A stretch of DNA of 64,000 bases, from positions 1 to 64,000 of IMG/VR virus record IMGVR_UViG_3300005095_000128; one strand, given 5' to 3'. The notes under the pieces are model-generated. The model was not told the DNA's origin. It did not search any database and worked only from the letters and a program-made list of their open reading frames with translations. This document shows, piece by piece, positions 21,529 to 50,440 of this stretch; the stretch's first letter is position 1, and every line of letters begins with the position of its first letter. A program made the translations under genes and the position numbers. The stretch comes from a virus.

Positions 21529-21603
21529 TGGCTGGCCGGGCAGGACTCGAACCTGCACCGCCGGGTCCAAAGCCCGATGTGCTGCCGATTACACCACCGG
21601 CCA
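21529..21603 (-). tRNA. tRNA-Gln(TTG)
   Basis: Cloverleaf with acceptor TGGCCGG/CCGGCCA, anticodon loop CT-TTG-GA, GGTTCGAGTCC and encoded CCA. Confidence 0.95.
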
Positions 21604-21606
21604 ATG

Positions 21607-21681
21607 TGGCTGGCCGGGTAGGAGTCGAACCTACGACCAGGCGGTTAACAGCCGCCCGCTCTACCACTGAGCTACCGGCCA
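21607..21681 (-). tRNA. tRNA-Asn(GTT)
   Basis: Cloverleaf with D-arm TAGCTCAGTGGTAGAGC, anticodon loop CT-GTT-AA, GGTTCGACTCC and encoded CCA. Confidence 0.96.
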
Positions 21682-25132: not shown

Positions 25133-26203
25133 TTACACCAGAGTGATGGTGCGCGAAGCGCCGGTGAAGAGTTTGGCGTAGCCAACCACCTCGGAGAAAG
25201 CGATGACGTTGAACTGCTGGGTAATGAGCCGCTCGGTCTCGACGAGCTCGGAGCCCTCCTCGTAGACCTCCTCAAGGGCGTACCGCTTGTCGACGGCGAG
25301 CACCTTGTTCGCGATCTCCGGGGTGGACTCGACGAACCGGAGCTCCTTGCCGAGGGGCATCGGCCACTGGCCAGTATCCCGGAAGTTCGCACCGGTGGCG
25401 GTGGAGTCCTTGGCGGTGAAGATGTCGAGCTTGAGGATATCGCGCACGACGGTGCCCTTGTCGCCCACGAGCACGTTGGGCTCGAAGCCCTGAGTGAAGT
25501 CAACCACGAGGTCGACGAGGTGCTCGAAGGCAAGCGGGGCAGTCACGTTCCGGTTGGGCGCCGGGTTCGCGTTGCCGTCACCGTTAATGAGGGTGGCAAC
25601 CGCCCGACGCACCTTGGCCCGGCGGGTATCAAGCGCAATCTTCCGCACGAAGGTGGCCAGGTGGTCGAGCCGCGACCGGCGCACCGCCTCGTAGCTCATC
25701 TTAAGCTGAGCGCCGTACTTGTAGAGGCTGATCGCCTGCTCGTGCCGCTGCACGATCACCGCGGGGAGCTCGGCGCCCTCGGAAACCTCGAGGAGCTCCA
25801 CCGACTGGTCCTCGTCGATGTACTCACCCCGGTAGGCGCCGGAATTGATCCCCACGCGGGAAGCGATGATGTCCTGGATCTTGAGCTCGTTCGCCCCCTC
25901 CTGCTCGGCGAACCGGAACTCACGCACCAGGAACTCGGGGAAGAGCACCCGCGCGTTGGGGTCGTAGAAGAAGGCATCACCGGTGGACGCCTTCTCACCC
26001 CGCACCCGGATGCCGAACTGCATCAGCGCCTGCTCGAAGGCATCGAGCTCCTTGAGCTCGGGGTTGTACCACTCAAAGAGGTGCCCTTCGCCCTTGGAGG
26101 CGGTCTTCGCCTTCCAATCGAGCCACTCGCTGAAGGTCATCCCGGCCTTGGCGGCCTCCTGATACATGCCAATTTCAAACTTGGGCTTGACGTTCTTGCT
26201 CAT
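25133..26203 (-). CDS. Major capsid protein (HK97 fold)
   Basis: LFPEFL, VSEGAELP, KYGAQLKMSYEA and ETERLITQQ motifs; strongly biased codons; followed by a hairpin at 25100-25125. Confidence 0.9.
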   Translation of the reverse strand: MSKNVKPKFEIGMYQEAAKAGMTFSEWLDWKAKTASKGEGHLFEWYNPELKELDAFEQALMQFGIRVRGEKASTGDAFFYDPNARVLFPEFLVREFRFAEQEGANELKIQDIIASRVGINSGAYRGEYIDEDQSVELLEVSEGAELPAVIVQRHEQAISLYKYGAQLKMSYEAVRRSRLDHLATFVRKIALDTRRAKVRRAVATLINGDGNANPAPNRNVTAPLAFEHLVDLVVDFTQGFEPNVLVGDKGTVVRDILKLDIFTAKDSTATGANFRDTGQWPMPLGKELRFVESTPEIANKVLAVDKRYALEEVYEEGSELVETERLITQQFNVIAFSEVVGYAKLFTGASRTITLV

Positions 26204-47937: not shown

Positions 47938-48246
47938 ATGCTAACATCTGAGGTGATGGAAGTCGGGCTCTACACGATCGACAAAAGTAAGCCGGTGGAT
48001 AGCATTGCTCGCGTGATCCGCCGCACACGAGAGCGTCGCGGGATTCCACAGCGCGAACTTGCCGCGAGGACCGGCAAGACGCGCACGACGCTAAGTAGGA
48101 TGGAGTCTGGCAAGCACGACTTGCGCATTAGCACGATCGTCGAGTTGCTCGACGAGCTCGGCATGGAGCTCATTGCCGTTGACCGTGATACGGCGGCAAT
48201 GCTACGCGACATGTTCGAGCTTGACAAAGAGAGAGACGCGGGTTAA
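47938..48246 (+). CDS. XRE-family HTH regulator
   Basis: IRRTRERRGIPQRELAARTGKTRTTLSRMESG...ISTIVELLDELG. Confidence 0.88.
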   Translation: MLTSEVMEVGLYTIDKSKPVDSIARVIRRTRERRGIPQRELAARTGKTRTTLSRMESGKHDLRISTIVELLDELGMELIAVDRDTAAMLRDMFELDKERDAG

Positions 48247-48249
48247 GCT
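48221..48249 (+). promoter_or_regulatory. Sigma70 promoter for the Y-RNA-like cluster
   Basis: TTGACA-17-TAAGCT, followed by ~290 nt with no credible ORF. Confidence 0.75.
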
Positions 48250-48289
48250 ATTGGCGATGTCCGATACGGGCACCCGACAACGAGCAAGC

Positions 48290-48397
48290 GCGAGCGGTAT
48301 GCCGTGGCGGGTTATTGGGCGAATAGCTAGAGGTTCGACTCCTCACCATAGCGCGGTCAAACCGCGCGTGACTCCCGCCACGAGTTCGACCGCTCGC
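48290..48397 (+). ncRNA. Y RNA-like RNA 1 (with T-arm)
   Basis: Stems GCGAGCGGT/ACCGCTCGC and CGTGGCGGG/CCCGCCACG separated by an ATGC/AGTTCG internal loop; GAGG-TTCGACT-CCTC T-arm; adjacent to Ro60. Confidence 0.75.
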
Positions 48398-48414
48398 TTC
48401 TAATACGAGAATCT

Positions 48415-48498
48415 CCCCGGTATGCTGCAAGGGGTTACCGAATGTGGATCGGGACACCCTGCTAAGGTGTACAAACCCCCTTGCGAACTTGACCGGGG
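48415..48498 (+). ncRNA. Y RNA-like RNA 2 (with D-like and anticodon-like arms)
   Basis: CCCCGGT/ACCGGGG and GCAAGGGG/CCCCTTGC stems; same GGTATGC 5' motif; 3' CTTGACC; ends in TTGATTTTT. Confidence 0.7.
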
Positions 48499-48545
48499 TT
48501 GATTTTTATCTCTAGGGGTGATAAGCTTGCTACCGGGAGGATGAG

Positions 48546-50048
48546 ATGCAGGTTAACCGTGTAAAGGGTATGTATAATAGTGCTCGTTCAAAGCTTCCTG
48601 GCCGCGAACATGAGATGACCTATAACGACGCCGGTGGCGCCGTCTTCATCGACGATGCGAAGCGACTCGAGCGGTTCATCATTCTCGGCATCGACGAGGG
48701 GACGATCTACGCTACGCCGGAAGAAATCCATGAGCGTACCATCGAGCTTATTCGCGAGCTTCCCTATGAGACCTTCAAGCGCGTCATGATCGAGGCGGCA
48801 CCGAAAGCGTGGCGCAAGCGGAACCCGATTGCGGCCATTGCGATCCGCGCCGCCCTTACCGACGATCGCGCTCTCATTTTCAACGATTTGCTACCGAACC
48901 TTCCTGGCTTGTTCAAGACGCCCTCCGACCTGCTTTACTTCGCCTCCATGTACCGTGGCGCGTTCAGGAAGCCGTTTAGCCGCTCGGTGCGCCGGTTCGT
49001 CCAGCGCAAGCTCCACGACTTCGACGACTACCAGCTTGCCAAGTACCGCAAGCGCTATGGCATTTCCACGAGCGATCTCCTAAAGCTCGCGCACCCGCAC
49101 CCTGGCGATCGCAACGCTGTCTTCCACTACCTCCTGGATGGTGAATACACCGACGAACTTGCCGGCACCATCTTCGAGGGCCTCAAGCTGGCCAACATCG
49201 CCGGTACGGTCGACGAGGTGCTCAAGGTCGCCGAGCGCTTCAACCTCTCGTGGGAGATGCTCCCCTCGTGGGCGCTCAAGGATGCGGACACCTGGGTTGG
49301 CCTCTACCGCATGGGCAAGATTCCGGCAATGGCGCTCCTGCGCAACGCATGGCGCTTTGACCGGGATGGCGTACCAGGCGATGTTTTCGATAGCGTTGTG
49401 GAAGATCTCTCCAAGATCCACCGCCGTGGCGTGCACCCCGGGTACATCCTGACGGCCGCCATCGAGTTAAAGCGCCGCAACGCAAGCTACGATTTGGTCG
49501 ATGCGCTCTTCAAGGCGTTCGACGCCGCATCGAGTAGCAACGCTGCGCACGACATGCGCATCGGGCTTGCCATCGACAATAGCGGCTCCATGTGGTGGGG
49601 CATGATCGGTGGGATGTTGCGCCTCGAGGCCGCACTCGCGCTTGGTAGCGTGATCGACTCTGCCTTCCGGCGCGTATCGGTGACCTACTTTAGCAATAGA
49701 GCGTACAACCTCAACATCCGCCCGCGTTCCGCGCTCGATAGCTTCGAGGATACGTTGCGCGAGTATAGCGGAGGCACTAGCGTGGCTAGCGCTCTAAGCC
49801 ACCTTGCCGATCGCCGTGGCGACGGATACGACGCGACCGTAGTGATCACCGACGAGCAGAACTGGGCTGGCGAGAGCGTGCAGATGACCTACCAGCGGCA
49901 CAAGAAGACGCTTGGCAAGCTCATCATCGTGACCGTTGACGCTAGCGCGAAGGGCTCGCTCACCGACCCCAAGGATCCTGACCAGGTGACGGTCGTCGGC
50001 TTGGTGCCCGAGATCGACAAGGTGATCGCTGAGTTCGTGCGCGGGTAA
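48546..50048 (+). CDS. Ro60/Rsr (TROVE plus vWA) RNA-binding protein
   Basis: NDAGG...RLERFIILG..GTIY, KYRKR...DLLKLAHP, WE.LPS, MALLRN, HP, DNSGSM MIDAS, GGT and ITDEQNW. Own promoter TTGATT-17-TAAGCT at 48499-48527. Confidence 0.92.
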   Translation: MQVNRVKGMYNSARSKLPGREHEMTYNDAGGAVFIDDAKRLERFIILGIDEGTIYATPEEIHERTIELIRELPYETFKRVMIEAAPKAWRKRNPIAAIAIRAALTDDRALIFNDLLPNLPGLFKTPSDLLYFASMYRGAFRKPFSRSVRRFVQRKLHDFDDYQLAKYRKRYGISTSDLLKLAHPHPGDRNAVFHYLLDGEYTDELAGTIFEGLKLANIAGTVDEVLKVAERFNLSWEMLPSWALKDADTWVGLYRMGKIPAMALLRNAWRFDRDGVPGDVFDSVVEDLSKIHRRGVHPGYILTAAIELKRRNASYDLVDALFKAFDAASSSNAAHDMRIGLAIDNSGSMWWGMIGGMLRLEAALALGSVIDSAFRRVSVTYFSNRAYNLNIRPRSALDSFEDTLREYSGGTSVASALSHLADRRGDGYDATVVITDEQNWAGESVQMTYQRHKKTLGKLIIVTVDASAKGSLTDPKDPDQVTVVGLVPEIDKVIAEFVRG

Positions 50049-50050
50049 AC

Positions 50051-50440
50051 ATGGGCGTCGTGCACGTCTATAGCCCGAACTACGGCTACTCCGGCAAGCT
50101 CCACCCGTGTCCGGTGTGCGGCTACGAATACGACCGCGGCGAGCACTACCTACAACGCCCGTGTCCCGTATGTGGCGCCGCCGAGCTCGAGGTCGAGAGC
50201 TTGCCGGAGCTTGTGCACGGCGCCGTCTCGACGTTCGTGCATAGGTATGGTATCCCGCGGCGTGAAATCGCCCAAGTTATTGGTATCTCGCCACACACGC
50301 TCAAGTCGTGGGAATACCGCAAGTGTACATATGAGCAGTTTGAGCGCTTTAGCGAGGCGATTCGCTTGATCGCCGCAGAGCGCAAGTTGTACGACGTGGC
50401 ACGGCGTGAAGAGGCAGAGCACGAGAACGGAGGTGCATGA
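50051..50440 (+). CDS. Zinc-ribbon plus HTH protein (MqsA-like architecture)
   Basis: CPVCG x2, then YGIPRREIAQVIGISPHTLKSWE. Confidence 0.65.
   Translation: MGVVHVYSPNYGYSGKLHPCPVCGYEYDRGEHYLQRPCPVCGAAELEVESLPELVHGAVSTFVHRYGIPRREIAQVIGISPHTLKSWEYRKCTYEQFERFSEAIRLIAAERKLYDVARREEAEHENGGA

What the first reader, a model, noticed from the sequence alone, without database searches (positions are those of the whole stretch)
48330..48484. tRNA parts split across the two Y-like RNAs, including a perfect Ser(GCU) anticodon arm
Seen: RNA2 has tRNA 5'-half geometry: stem, TA, 4-bp D-like arm CCGA-ATGTGGA-TCGG (48438-48452), one nt, then 5-bp ACACC-CTGCTAA-GGTGT (48454-48470) with a canonical CU-GCU-AA loop, and no T-arm. 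RNA1 has the T-arm (48330-48344) but no anticodon arm. Known: described YrlA RNAs mimic the D/T elbow and lack an anticodon arm. Inference: a Ro60-presented decoy for anticodon nucleases or tRNA-targeting toxins, or two RNAs assembling a tRNA mimic in trans.
Basis: partly seen in the sequence, partly recalled or inferred. Interest (0 to 1): 0.85.

Follow-up and report, generated by a model that had tools for sequence, protein, structure and literature searches.

The report
Anticodon-arm look-alike on phage Y RNA
Just upstream of its Ro60 gene, an uncultured phage encodes two small partner RNAs, one of which carries an exact copy of a serine tRNA anticodon hairpin; related Ro60 loci show the same habit, which suggests these RNAs bait proteins that read or cut tRNA anticodons.

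Summary
All hairpins sit at the stated coordinates and the minimum-energy folds reproduce them. RNA1 (48290-48397) has a T arm and a closed acceptor-like hairpin but no D arm. RNA2 (48415-48498) has two hairpins with 7-nt loops and no T arm. Both lie upstream of a true Ro60 gene.

The 17-nt Ser(GCU) hairpin is letter-for-letter the anticodon arm of real tRNA-Ser(GCU) genes: 84 of 114 bacterial matches and 34 of 35 viral matches.

No close relative of the locus could be fetched. In 115 distant Ro60 loci, 56 of 97 hairpins at the matching position have anticodon-type loops, against 10.6% in controls. The triplet varies, and position 37 follows the tRNA rule. In 42 of those 56 a T loop follows in the same RNA, and 76 of 205 units lack a T arm. 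Trans assembly is therefore unnecessary and has no support.

The "D-like arm" fits better as the family's handle or first-hairpin element. Function as a bait is inferred, not shown.

I found no paper describing anticodon display by Y RNAs. This scan has noted it before on other phage DNA. I rate it a new variant of a known kind.

The parts
48221..48249 (+). Possible promoter: TTGACA, 17 nt, TAAGCT. It overlaps the stop codon of the upstream HTH gene.
   Evidence: Read from the sequence. The tool's sigma-70 scan did not list it, because the second hexamer matches only 3 of 6. Inferred.
48290..48397 (+). RNA1, a Y-type RNA. It has an outer stem (48290-48297 / 48390-48397), a shared internal loop, an inner stem (48304-48311 / 48374-48381), UUAU, a weak short hairpin, a T arm and a closed acceptor-like hairpin. 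It has no D arm.
   Evidence: MFE and centroid fold, z -5.07. Blocks shared with RNA2 in alignment A3.
48330..48344 (+). T arm of RNA1: a 4-bp stem with a 7-nt loop UUCGACU.
   Evidence: It is the only + strand match to GGTTCGANTCC in the 83.6-kb genome.
48347..48370 (+). Closed acceptor-like (AS) hairpin of RNA1: 10 bp with one bulged A and a 3-nt loop.
   Evidence: Its position after the T arm matches the YrlA layout in Chen 2014.
48415..48498 (+). RNA2, a short Y-type RNA. It has an outer stem (48415-48421 / 48492-48498), the same internal loop as RNA1, an inner stem (48427-48434 / 48477-48484), UUA, two hairpins and a 6-nt joining strand.
   Evidence: MFE and centroid fold, z -2.55. Alignment A3.
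48438..48452 (+). It matches the canonical handle-core pattern and lies directly after GG-UUA, where relatives carry their first hairpin. The loop fits N-U-GUG-G-A, which is His-like.
48454..48470 (+). Hairpin h2: a 5-bp stem with loop CUGCUAA. It is identical to the anticodon arm of natural tRNA-Ser(GCU) genes.
   Evidence: 84 of 114 genome segments and 34 of 35 viral segments that hold this 17-mer are tRNA-Ser(GCU) genes by ARAGORN.
48499..48507 (+). U-rich run straight after RNA2's closing stem. It may be the transcript end.
   Evidence: Sequence. The terminator scan did not list it, because the closing stem is not a simple hairpin. Inferred.
48546..50048 (+). Ro60 (Rsr) orthologue, 500 aa, with TROVE and Ro60-type vWA domains.
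   Evidence: Pfam PF05731 at 2.5e-16 and PF25045 at 9e-15. phrog_850. PDB 2NVO Rsr at E 4.3e-30 and 1YVP Ro60 at 2.5e-10.

Best explanation
The stretch encodes two self-contained Y-type partner RNAs of the phage's own Ro60. Both share a two-stem scaffold with one conserved internal loop and the junction GG-UUA.

RNA1 carries a T arm and a closed acceptor-like hairpin. It resembles YrlA but has no D arm. RNA2 is a short, T-arm-less Y RNA whose apical module is two hairpins with 7-nt loops. The first (loop AUGUGGA) coincides with the family's handle or first-hairpin element. The second is an exact copy of a tRNA-Ser(GCU) anticodon arm.

This is the local form of a habit seen across Ro60 loci. 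The hairpin that the literature calls the variable (V) arm is often an anticodon-arm look-alike. Its triplet changes from RNA to RNA, and its position 37 follows the tRNA rule.

Inferred mechanism: Ro60 holds the scaffold and presents the anticodon-type hairpins to proteins that read anticodon loops. These would most likely be host anticodon nucleases or tRNA-directed toxins, or else tRNA-modifying enzymes. Presentation would either soak them up or tether them to Ro60 and its nuclease partners.

Shown: the sequences, the folds, identity to real tRNA arms, and recurrence in relatives. Inferred: transcription, Ro60 binding and the bait function.
For: - Ro60 identity.
- The folds contain the described hairpins.
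- RNA1 and RNA2 share CGGUAUGC, GGGUUA and CGA..U.GACCG around stems of different sequence that stay paired. The two motif pairs occur nowhere else together in the 83.6-kb genome.
- The h2 17-mer equals real tRNA-Ser(GCU) anticodon arms: 84 of 114 genome segments and 34 of 35 viral segments.
- Family data come from 115 Ro60 loci holding 205 distinct handle units. 97 have a hairpin with a stem of 3 bp or more and a 7-nt loop starting within 3 nt of UUA.
- 56 of those 97 have U33 and R37 and are not T loops. 50 of the 56 also have Y32.
- In 91,948 control hairpins from the same loci, 10.6% have U33 and R37 and 5.5% also have Y32. CUNNNRA loops make up 35 of 97, against 0.7% in controls.
- G36 goes with G37 in 15 of 15 units, and non-G36 with A37 in 38 of 41. 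Real tRNAs of the same loci show 9 of 11 and 41 of 45.
- There are 33 distinct loops. CUGCUAA itself occurs in L006, L010, L114 and L190.
- Anticodon-type hairpins occur in 69 of 115 loci and in 26 of 41 sequence clusters.
- ARAGORN such Y units tRNAs, using the handle as the D arm and this hairpin as the anticodon arm. Rfam's tRNA model reaches its gathering score on three of them: L010 1083-1152, L019 905-974 and L003 918-1006.
- Short units that carry only such a hairpin exist. One example is L190 1323-1408, with the same loop.
- Cultured phages show the A32 form: ScoobyDoobyDoo has AUGCGGA, Sparky AUUGCAA and Karp AUUGGAA.
Against: - No orthologous locus could be examined. The family evidence therefore comes from Ro60 relatives of at most 32% identity, whose handle sequence differs from this one.
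- Neither RNA matches Rfam YrlA RF02553. There is no match at E<=10 in 48150-48650, and the best genome-wide hit is 16.5 bits elsewhere against a 69-bit cut-off.
- My sequence model of the canonical handle plus hairpin (R1) finds neither RNA at E<=10.
- Only 56 of 205 canonical units show the anticodon-type hairpin by my criteria. Some loops are not natural anticodons (AUU triplet; CUAUUUA with U37).
- In RNA2 the Ser-type hairpin is the second hairpin. It sits where relatives have a T arm, not at the first position.
- The D-plus-anticodon geometry alone is at chance frequency.
- RNA2's fold is only modestly better than shuffles (z -2.55).
- No transcript, binding, modification or cleavage data exist. 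No host is known.
- The window holds no RNA-repair or nuclease gene that I recognised next to Ro60.
Confidence: 0.5

Rival explanations
1. Vestige of ancestry. Y RNAs arose from tRNA genes, under the dimeric pre-tRNA model quoted in Wang et al. 2018. On this view the D-like and anticodon-like hairpins are leftovers of the first tRNA with no present role. Only the Ro60 scaffold, and in RNA1 the T arm, would matter.
For: - Wang 2018 states the dimeric-tRNA origin model.
- The order handle(D-like) - anticodon-like - T arm in relatives is the tRNA order, and tRNA finders call such units tRNAs.
- Ro60 genes often sit in phage tRNA arrays.
- h2 is identical to phage and bacterial tRNA-Ser(GCU) arms, as expected after recent capture from a tRNA gene.
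Against: - In relatives the stems are cut down to a few near-constant forms (CCA/UGG, UCA/UGA, CCU/AGG). The 7-nt format, U33, R37 and the G36-G37 coupling are kept while the triplet changes. That pattern fits selection on the loop rather than decay.
- The feature persists across 26 of 41 clusters of loci.
Confidence: 0.2
2. RNA1 (T arm) and RNA2 (D and anticodon arms) dock in trans, with the GG of h1 contacting the T loop, to build one tRNA-shaped particle on Ro60.
For: - The two RNAs hold complementary sets of arms.
- RNA1's T loop has no D-loop partner in cis.
- The h1 loop contains GG.
- The phiLo phage Ro60 forms higher-order and dimeric RNPs with its Y-like RNAs, according to the abstract and passages of the NAR 2025 paper.
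Against: - Co-folding gives no gain over the separate folds: 0.0 kcal/mol, against a shuffled mean of -0.03.
- Relatives have the anticodon-type hairpin and T arm in cis in 42 of 56 cases, and 76 of 205 units lack a T arm.
- h1 matches the handle-core pattern and the first-hairpin position. It does not match the canonical tRNA-type D-arm motif, which a loose pattern finds in 59 of 129 long units.
- Covariation cannot be tested without orthologues.
Confidence: 0.05
3. h1 is the real Ro60 docking element rather than a displayed arm. It carries a near match to the published CGAA-type Rsr motif. The conserved internal loop shared by RNA1 and RNA2 would then bind another factor or only shape the scaffold, leaving h2 as the sole displayed hairpin.
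For: - h1 fits the canonical handle-core pattern at every conserved position. About 0.012 such matches are expected per 200 nt (8 hits per 64 kb on both strands, against 7.7 expected).
- RNA1 has a near match to GNCGAAN0-1G at the equivalent place after GGG-UUA.
- Chen 2014 links this motif to Rsr binding.
Against: - The motif lies in the apical module, not in the 5' strand of the terminal stem as in described Y RNAs.
- Model R1 does not find it.
- The longest blocks shared by RNA1 and RNA2 are in the internal loop.
Confidence: 0.15
4. No functional RNA: a structured 5' leader of the Ro60 mRNA, or chance hairpins.
For: - No Rfam or ARAGORN call falls here.
- The promoter and terminator scans list nothing that fits.
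- The geometry occurs at chance frequency.
Against: - RNA1's fold has z -5.07 and a perfect T loop.
- The two paralogous scaffolds keep their stems paired with different sequences around an identical loop.
- The position and strand match those of Y RNAs in 109 of 115 Ro60 loci.
Confidence: 0.05

Closest known systems
YrlA and YrlB of Salmonella Typhimurium and Mycobacterium smegmatis, and mycobacteriophage YrlA-like RNAs (Chen et al. 2014, PMC4201824, Results read; Rfam RF02553)
   Same: - They are encoded just upstream of Ro60 on the same strand, as two RNAs in tandem.
- The 5' and 3' ends pair into a long stem with an internal loop.
- One RNA (RNA1 here) has a T arm followed by a closed acceptor-like hairpin.
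- UUAY begins the apical module.
- A second, shorter RNA lies beside it.
   Different: - Neither RNA matches RF02553.
- The internal-loop sequence is different.
- RNA1 has no D arm.
- RNA2 has no T arm, whereas M. smegmatis YrlB is said to have a possible one. RNA2 instead carries an exact tRNA anticodon arm.
- Published YrlA is described as lacking the anticodon loop.
Deinococcus radiodurans Yrn1 (Chen et al. 2014)
   Same: - It has a T arm but no full D arm, like RNA1.
- It was modelled with a 5-bp 'anticodon arm', like RNA2's h2.
   Different: - Yrn1's loop has 6 nt, not 7.
- It has both elements in one RNA. Here they are on two RNAs, and the loop is a perfect 7-nt Ser(GCU) loop.
Thermus phage phiLo Ro60 with Yrl1 and Yrl2 (NAR 2025, PMC12135203; abstract and passages seen)
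   Same: A phage Ro60 with two Y-like RNAs upstream. Binding and higher-order RNPs were shown there, as was PNPase recruitment in vitro.
   Different: The word 'anticodon' does not occur in that paper. Those RNAs were picked by a CGAA motif. I did not compare the sequences.
Canonical Ro60-linked Y units of uncultured phages and bacteria (115 loci fetched here), and the anticodon-displaying Ro60-partner RNAs noted earlier by this scan on other genomes (e1-6002997, e1-5990841, e1-5780405, e1-5790181)
   Same: - The layout is stem, internal loop, stem, GG-UUA-YC, then a hairpin with a 7-nt anticodon-type loop.
- The loop CUGCUAA recurs in L006, L010, L114 and L190.
- Short units without a T arm exist.
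   Different: - The handle sequence here is unique. A motif scan of viral contigs gave 76 chance hits, none with Ro60.
- RNA2 has two hairpins, and the Ser-type one has a full 5-bp stem in second position.
- Most earlier scan notes concern another handle (ACAGCAA) and Ro60-like DUF2828 proteins.
tRNA-Ser(GCU)
   Same: The 17-nt anticodon arm is identical. U33, A37 and A38 are present.
   Different: There is no acceptor end, T arm or long variable arm. Neither ARAGORN nor the Rfam tRNA model calls it.

Membership tests
Y RNA (Ro60 partner RNA, general) | Encoded next to a Ro60/Rsr gene, on the same strand | tested here: met
   Ro60 lies at 48546-50048 on the + strand. The RNAs lie 48-256 nt upstream on the + strand.
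Y RNA (Ro60 partner RNA, general) | 5' and 3' ends pair into a long stem interrupted by a conserved internal loop or bulge | tested here: met
   Folds. The internal loop is identical in RNA1 and RNA2, between stems of different sequence.
Y RNA (Ro60 partner RNA, general) | Bound by Ro60 in vivo | not testable with these tools
   No RNA run holds the stretch. No binding data exist.
YrlA (Rfam RF02553) | Scores at or above the family's covariance-model cut-off (69 bits) | tested here: not met
   No match at E<=10 in 48150-48650. The best hit in the whole genome is 16.5 bits, at 25630-25741.
YrlA (Chen et al. 2014 description) | GNCGAAN0-1G motif near the 5' end | tested here: not met
   The 5' strands read CGGUAUGC instead. 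Only near matches occur, and they lie in the apical modules: one extra nucleotide in RNA1, and A for the first G in RNA2.
YrlA (Chen et al. 2014 description) | T arm, closed acceptor-like stem-loop and D arm, in that order | tested here: not met
   RNA1 has the T arm and the AS hairpin but no D arm. RNA2 has neither a T arm nor an AS hairpin.
Canonical phage/bacterial Y handle (my model R1 from 50 units) | Sequence match to handle core + GGUUAYC + first hairpin | tested here: not met
   cmsearch with filters off over the window gave 16 matches at E<=10, none in 48284-48500. The pattern match of h1 to the core alone is met.
Anticodon-type hairpin of Ro60-linked Y RNAs (class defined here and in earlier scan notes) | 7-nt loop with U at position 2 and a purine at position 6, not a T loop | tested here: met
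   h1 has AUGUGGA and h2 has CUGCUAA. Family frequency is 56 of 97, against 10.6% in controls.
Anticodon-type hairpin of Ro60-linked Y RNAs (class defined here and in earlier scan notes) | Position 37 follows position 36 as in tRNAs (G after G, otherwise A) | tested here: met
   h1 reads GUG then G, and h2 reads GCU then A. The family shows 15 of 15 and 38 of 41. Real tRNAs show 9 of 11 and 41 of 45.
Anticodon-type hairpin of Ro60-linked Y RNAs (class defined here and in earlier scan notes) | Hairpin starts at the YC that follows GG-UUA | tested here: inconclusive
   This is met by h1 (48435-48452). The Ser-type h2 comes second, where relatives nearly always have the T arm.
tRNA | Cloverleaf recognised by ARAGORN or the Rfam tRNA model | tested here: not met
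   The only tRNAs are at 21529-21681. Nothing is found in 48150-48650 at E<=10.
tRNA-Ser(GCU) anticodon arm | Sequence identity of the 5-bp stem plus 7-nt loop with annotated or predicted tRNA-Ser(GCU) genes | tested here: met
   84 of 114 genome segments and 34 of 35 viral segments that hold the 17-mer are tRNA-Ser(gct) by ARAGORN.

The most novel reading that the evidence does not exclude
Ro60 particles of phages, and of many bacteria, are programmable anticodon displays. The hairpin so far called the variable arm of Y RNAs would be a swappable copy of a host tRNA anticodon arm. Here the copies would be Ser(GCU), with perhaps a His(GUG)-like loop. The phage would use it to trap, sense or redirect anticodon nucleases and other tRNA-directed defence proteins. 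On this reading the Ro60/Y-RNA system is a counter-defence device in the fight over tRNA.
Probability: 0.2. Interest if true: 0.85.

Novelty: new variant of a known kind. Interest (0 to 1): 0.6.

Why it matters
Y RNAs are known to tether Ro60 to effectors, but the effector of the tRNA-like bacterial and phage Y RNAs is unknown. Printed descriptions say these RNAs lack an anticodon loop.

If the hairpin next to the handle is a true anticodon-arm mimic with a changeable triplet, it names the likely class of partner: proteins that read anticodon loops. That turns an open question into direct tests of cleavage, modification or pull-down with defined hairpins.

This locus is a clean test case. It is a divergent Ro60 with only two RNAs. 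One of them is reduced to the scaffold plus an exact tRNA-Ser(GCU) arm, with no T arm to confuse the result.

Tried and rejected
- **Close relatives.** The Ro60 protein alone found no locus in viral or genome contigs. Loop conservation in orthologues therefore stays untested.
- **Motif scan for this locus's own handle.** A scan of viral contigs gave 76 loci, and 0 of 76 hold a Ro60 relative by tblastn. These are chance matches.
- **megablast of the locus against phage records.** No match.
- **Host.** The capsid and terminase searches gave only distant, mixed hits. The 17-mer's tRNA hits are mostly Mycoplasmatota and Patescibacteria MAGs. I do not take these as hosts of a 57% G+C phage.
- **Sequencing runs.** No RNA holder is listed. 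Three DNA runs of one study hold the stretch.
- **Laid contigs.** Between 48261 and 48545 no difference is listed for any run. The only listed change near the RNAs is 48260 T>C. 63 differences were not shown, and the positions of X3's variants are unknown. This gives no evidence on covariation.
- **Co-folding of RNA1 and RNA2.** No gain. Tertiary docking is not addressed by this test.
- **Model R1.** RNAalifold gave no consensus pair for A2, so the model was sequence-only and weak.
- **Rfam YrlA on relatives.** It reached gathering on none of the 35 IMG/VR Ro60 loci. A miss on this locus therefore says little about kinship.
- **Papers not held.** Sim et al. 2020 and Sim and Wolin 2018. I did not find Burroughs and Aravind 2016 in the library and know its content only from recall.
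- **Supplements.** Supplementary files of Chen 2014 (alignments and tables of 276 YrlA loci) were not opened. They may already show these hairpins.
- **Rejected readings.** A split or T-armless functional tRNA is rejected: there is no acceptor end, and tRNA finders make no call. The minus strand is rejected: the T loop, UUAYC, U-run and Ro60 orientation all favour the plus strand.
Full report
**What is there.** The window is part of an 83.6-kb IMG/VR phage contig. It carries terminase, portal and major head genes. At 48546-50048 (+) lies a 500-aa Ro60 orthologue. Its evidence is Pfam TROVE at 2.5e-16 and Ro60 vWA at 9e-15, phrog_850, and D. radiodurans Rsr 2NVO at E 4.3e-30.

The 300 nt before it hold no credible gene. 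They fold into two long-stem RNAs. RNA1 (48290-48397) reaches -60.6 kcal/mol with z -5.07. RNA2 (48415-48498) reaches -35.1 kcal/mol with z -2.55.

Every coordinate and letter in the finding is right. The T arm is at 48330-48344. A 4-bp hairpin with 7-nt loop is at 48438-48452, followed by one G. A 5-bp hairpin with loop CUGCUAA is at 48454-48470. After the T arm, RNA1 also has a closed 10-bp acceptor-like hairpin (48347-48370), and it has no D arm.

The two RNAs share CGGUAUGC, GGGUUA and CGA..U.GACCG. Their stems differ in sequence but stay paired. No other copy of this scaffold exists in the genome. The phage encodes only tRNA-Gln and tRNA-Asn.

**Is it more than chance?** The geometry alone is not. 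A 4-bp hairpin followed after 1-2 nt by a 5-bp hairpin with a Y-U-NNN-R loop occurs 11 times in the window, against 10.5 expected.

Content and context are what count. The 17 nt of the second hairpin were scanned against two collections:
- In one genome per prokaryote species there were 112 loci and 114 segments. 84 segments lie inside tRNA-Ser(GCU) genes by ARAGORN. About 17 lie at the ends of one insertion-sequence-like repeat. The rest are scattered.
- In viral contigs, 34 of 35 segments are phage tRNA-Ser(GCU) genes, and none lies near a Ro60.

So "perfect Ser(GCU) anticodon arm" is literally true.

**Relatives.** The Ro60 is isolated. In a 5.8-billion-protein search only one protein reaches 46% identity and one 31%. 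All 365 phage records with a relative are below 60%, and the listed ones are near 30%. The 46% relative's contig could not be fetched.

I collected 115 distant Ro60 loci instead: 35 from IMG/VR and 80 from metagenomes, all at most 32% identical. Almost all carry Y-type units upstream on the same strand, 109 of 115, often in arrays. These units have a canonical handle ending in GG-UUA-YC.

Our RNAs have the same architecture: outer stem, internal loop, inner stem, GG-UUA. Their internal-loop sequence is different. A scan for it in viral contigs gave only 76 chance hits without Ro60.

**The key result.** In those relatives, the hairpin that starts at the YC after UUA is very often an anticodon-loop look-alike. 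This is the element Chen et al. 2014 call the V arm.

- Of 205 distinct units, 97 have a hairpin there with a stem of 3 bp or more and a 7-nt loop.
- 5 of the 97 are T loops.
- 56 have U at loop position 2 and a purine at position 6. 50 of these 56 also have C or U at position 1.
- Among 91,948 control hairpins found by the same routine everywhere in the same loci, the two figures are 10.6% and 5.5%. Loops of the form CUNNNRA are 35 of 97, against 0.7%.
- The central triplet varies, giving 33 distinct loops. The next base tracks it: G follows a triplet ending in G in 15 of 15 units, and A follows other triplets in 38 of 41.
- The 56 distinct real tRNAs predicted in the same loci show 9 of 11 and 41 of 45.
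- The loop CUGCUAA itself recurs in four unrelated loci.
- Anticodon-type hairpins occur in 69 of 115 loci and in 26 of 41 clusters of loci.
- tRNA finders agree independently. ARAGORN Y units tRNAs, for example a "tRNA-Ser(GCT)" at L114 1265-1337. It uses the handle as the D arm and this hairpin as the anticodon arm. Rfam's tRNA model reaches gathering on three such units.
- Cultured Mycobacterium and Streptomyces phages show the same, including A at the first loop position as in our first hairpin.

**Consequences for this locus.**

First, the anticodon-type hairpin on a Ro60 partner RNA is a family trait, not an accident of this phage.

Second, the two-RNA trans-assembly idea is not needed. 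In relatives the anticodon-type hairpin is followed by a T loop in the same RNA in 42 of 56 cases, and 76 of 205 units have no T arm at all. L190 1323-1408 is a short unit with the same CUGCUAA loop. Co-folding RNA1 with RNA2 gives no gain. Tertiary loop-loop docking cannot be excluded with these tools.

Third, the "D-like arm" has better explanations than a D arm:
- It matches the family's handle-core pattern at every conserved position. Such matches number 8 per 64 kb on both strands against 7.7 expected, or about 0.012 per 200 nt.
- It begins directly after GG-UUA, where relatives have their first hairpin. L010 at 1235 has the same 4-bp stem with a CUCCAAA loop.
- Its own loop fits the family form, N-U-GUG-G-A.
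- The handle looks D-like in the relatives too. That is why tRNA finders are fooled, and it fits the dimeric-tRNA origin model quoted by Wang et al. 2018.

I cannot decide between "first displayed hairpin" and "handle relic or Ro60 site".

**Against my reading.**
- Neither RNA matches Rfam YrlA. That model also misses all 35 IMG/VR loci at gathering.
- My own sequence-only model of the canonical handle plus hairpin finds neither RNA.
- Only about a quarter of canonical units, 56 of 205, meet my criteria. Some loops are not natural anticodons.
- The Ser-type hairpin is the second hairpin here, at the place of the relatives' T arm.
- There is no expression, binding or cleavage evidence. No RNA run is listed, and laid contigs were uninformative.
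- The neighbours are HTH and unknown proteins, not RNA-repair enzymes.

**Mechanism.** What is shown is a Ro60 gene with two scaffold-sharing structured RNAs. One bears an exact tRNA-Ser(GCU) anticodon arm. Distant Ro60 loci recurrently show anticodon-type loops that obey a tRNA rule.

The rest is inferred. Ro60 would bind the shared scaffold. The apical hairpins would be presented to proteins that read anticodon loops. The most likely outcome would be baiting or soaking up anticodon nucleases or tRNA-directed toxins, or else engaging modification enzymes.

From my own knowledge, not from any call: U36-A37 loops are substrates for t6A formation, G36-G37 loops for m1G37, and a UGU in a 7-nt loop is the recognition element of tRNA-guanine transglycosylase. 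I put about 0.2 on a true bait or counter-defence role, and 0.2 on the hairpins being functionless leftovers of a tRNA ancestor.

**What is known.**
- Chen et al. 2014 (Results read) describe the V, T, AS and D arms, two Y RNAs per locus processed from one precursor, and a 6-nt-loop "anticodon arm" modelled in D. radiodurans Yrn1.
- Wang et al. [quoted passage not shown] - Four full-text searches found no paper describing anticodon display by Y RNAs.
- Two reviews were not held, and supplements were not opened.
- This scan has reported anticodon-arm mimics on phage Ro60-partner RNAs on other genomes, mostly with another handle. One follow-up judged a canonical-type unit not to be a dedicated tRNA mimic (e1-6085520). 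Two first-reader notes on this same locus describe the shared internal loop.

**Verdict.** I rate it a new variant of a known kind, with interest 0.6.

Noticed in passing
L219, L222, L232, L235, L244, L251, L252, L273, L301 and others (about 17 of 114 segments): The same 17-nt tRNA-Ser(GCU) anticodon-arm sequence sits inside a conserved terminal region of a repeat. It is often at contig ends in Pseudomonadota and Bdellovibrionota MAGs and is followed by an ORF start. It looks like the end of an insertion sequence.
   Followed up: no
L003 775-852, L012 661-734, L114 1265-1337, L188 1151-1229 and 7 more: ARAGORN Ro60-linked Y RNA units tRNAs, out of 73 calls in the Ro60 loci. tRNA annotations beside phage Ro60 genes can therefore be Y RNAs. 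Rfam YrlA RF02553 reached gathering on none of 35 IMG/VR Ro60 loci.
   Followed up: partly
window 48221-48249 and 48499-48527: Both candidate promoters, one before RNA1 and one before Ro60, have a 17-nt spacer and the same unusual second hexamer TAAGCT. The second is preceded by TGA. The tool's consensus scan lists neither.
   Followed up: no
window 49244-49900: Contigs of the runs that hold this phage differ from the window at many sites in the 3' half of Ro60. X2 shows 26 differences in 692 nt. X1 and X2 show almost none from 48261 to 49243. This looks like a strain mosaic.
   Followed up: no
window 47938-48246 (+) and 50051-50440 (+): Ro60 and its RNAs are flanked by small HTH proteins, Xre-type upstream and a weak Xre-like/Lar-like match downstream. 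Most other neighbours have no Pfam family. Earlier first-reader notes call this an antitoxin-like island.
   Followed up: no
L144, L145, L149, L153 (units near 1155, 439, 1154, 1151): Closely related loci carry the same 4-bp hairpin with loops UUCUGGU, UUGUGGU and UUUUGGU. They differ only at the first triplet position. This looks like triplet switching on a fixed frame.
   Followed up: no
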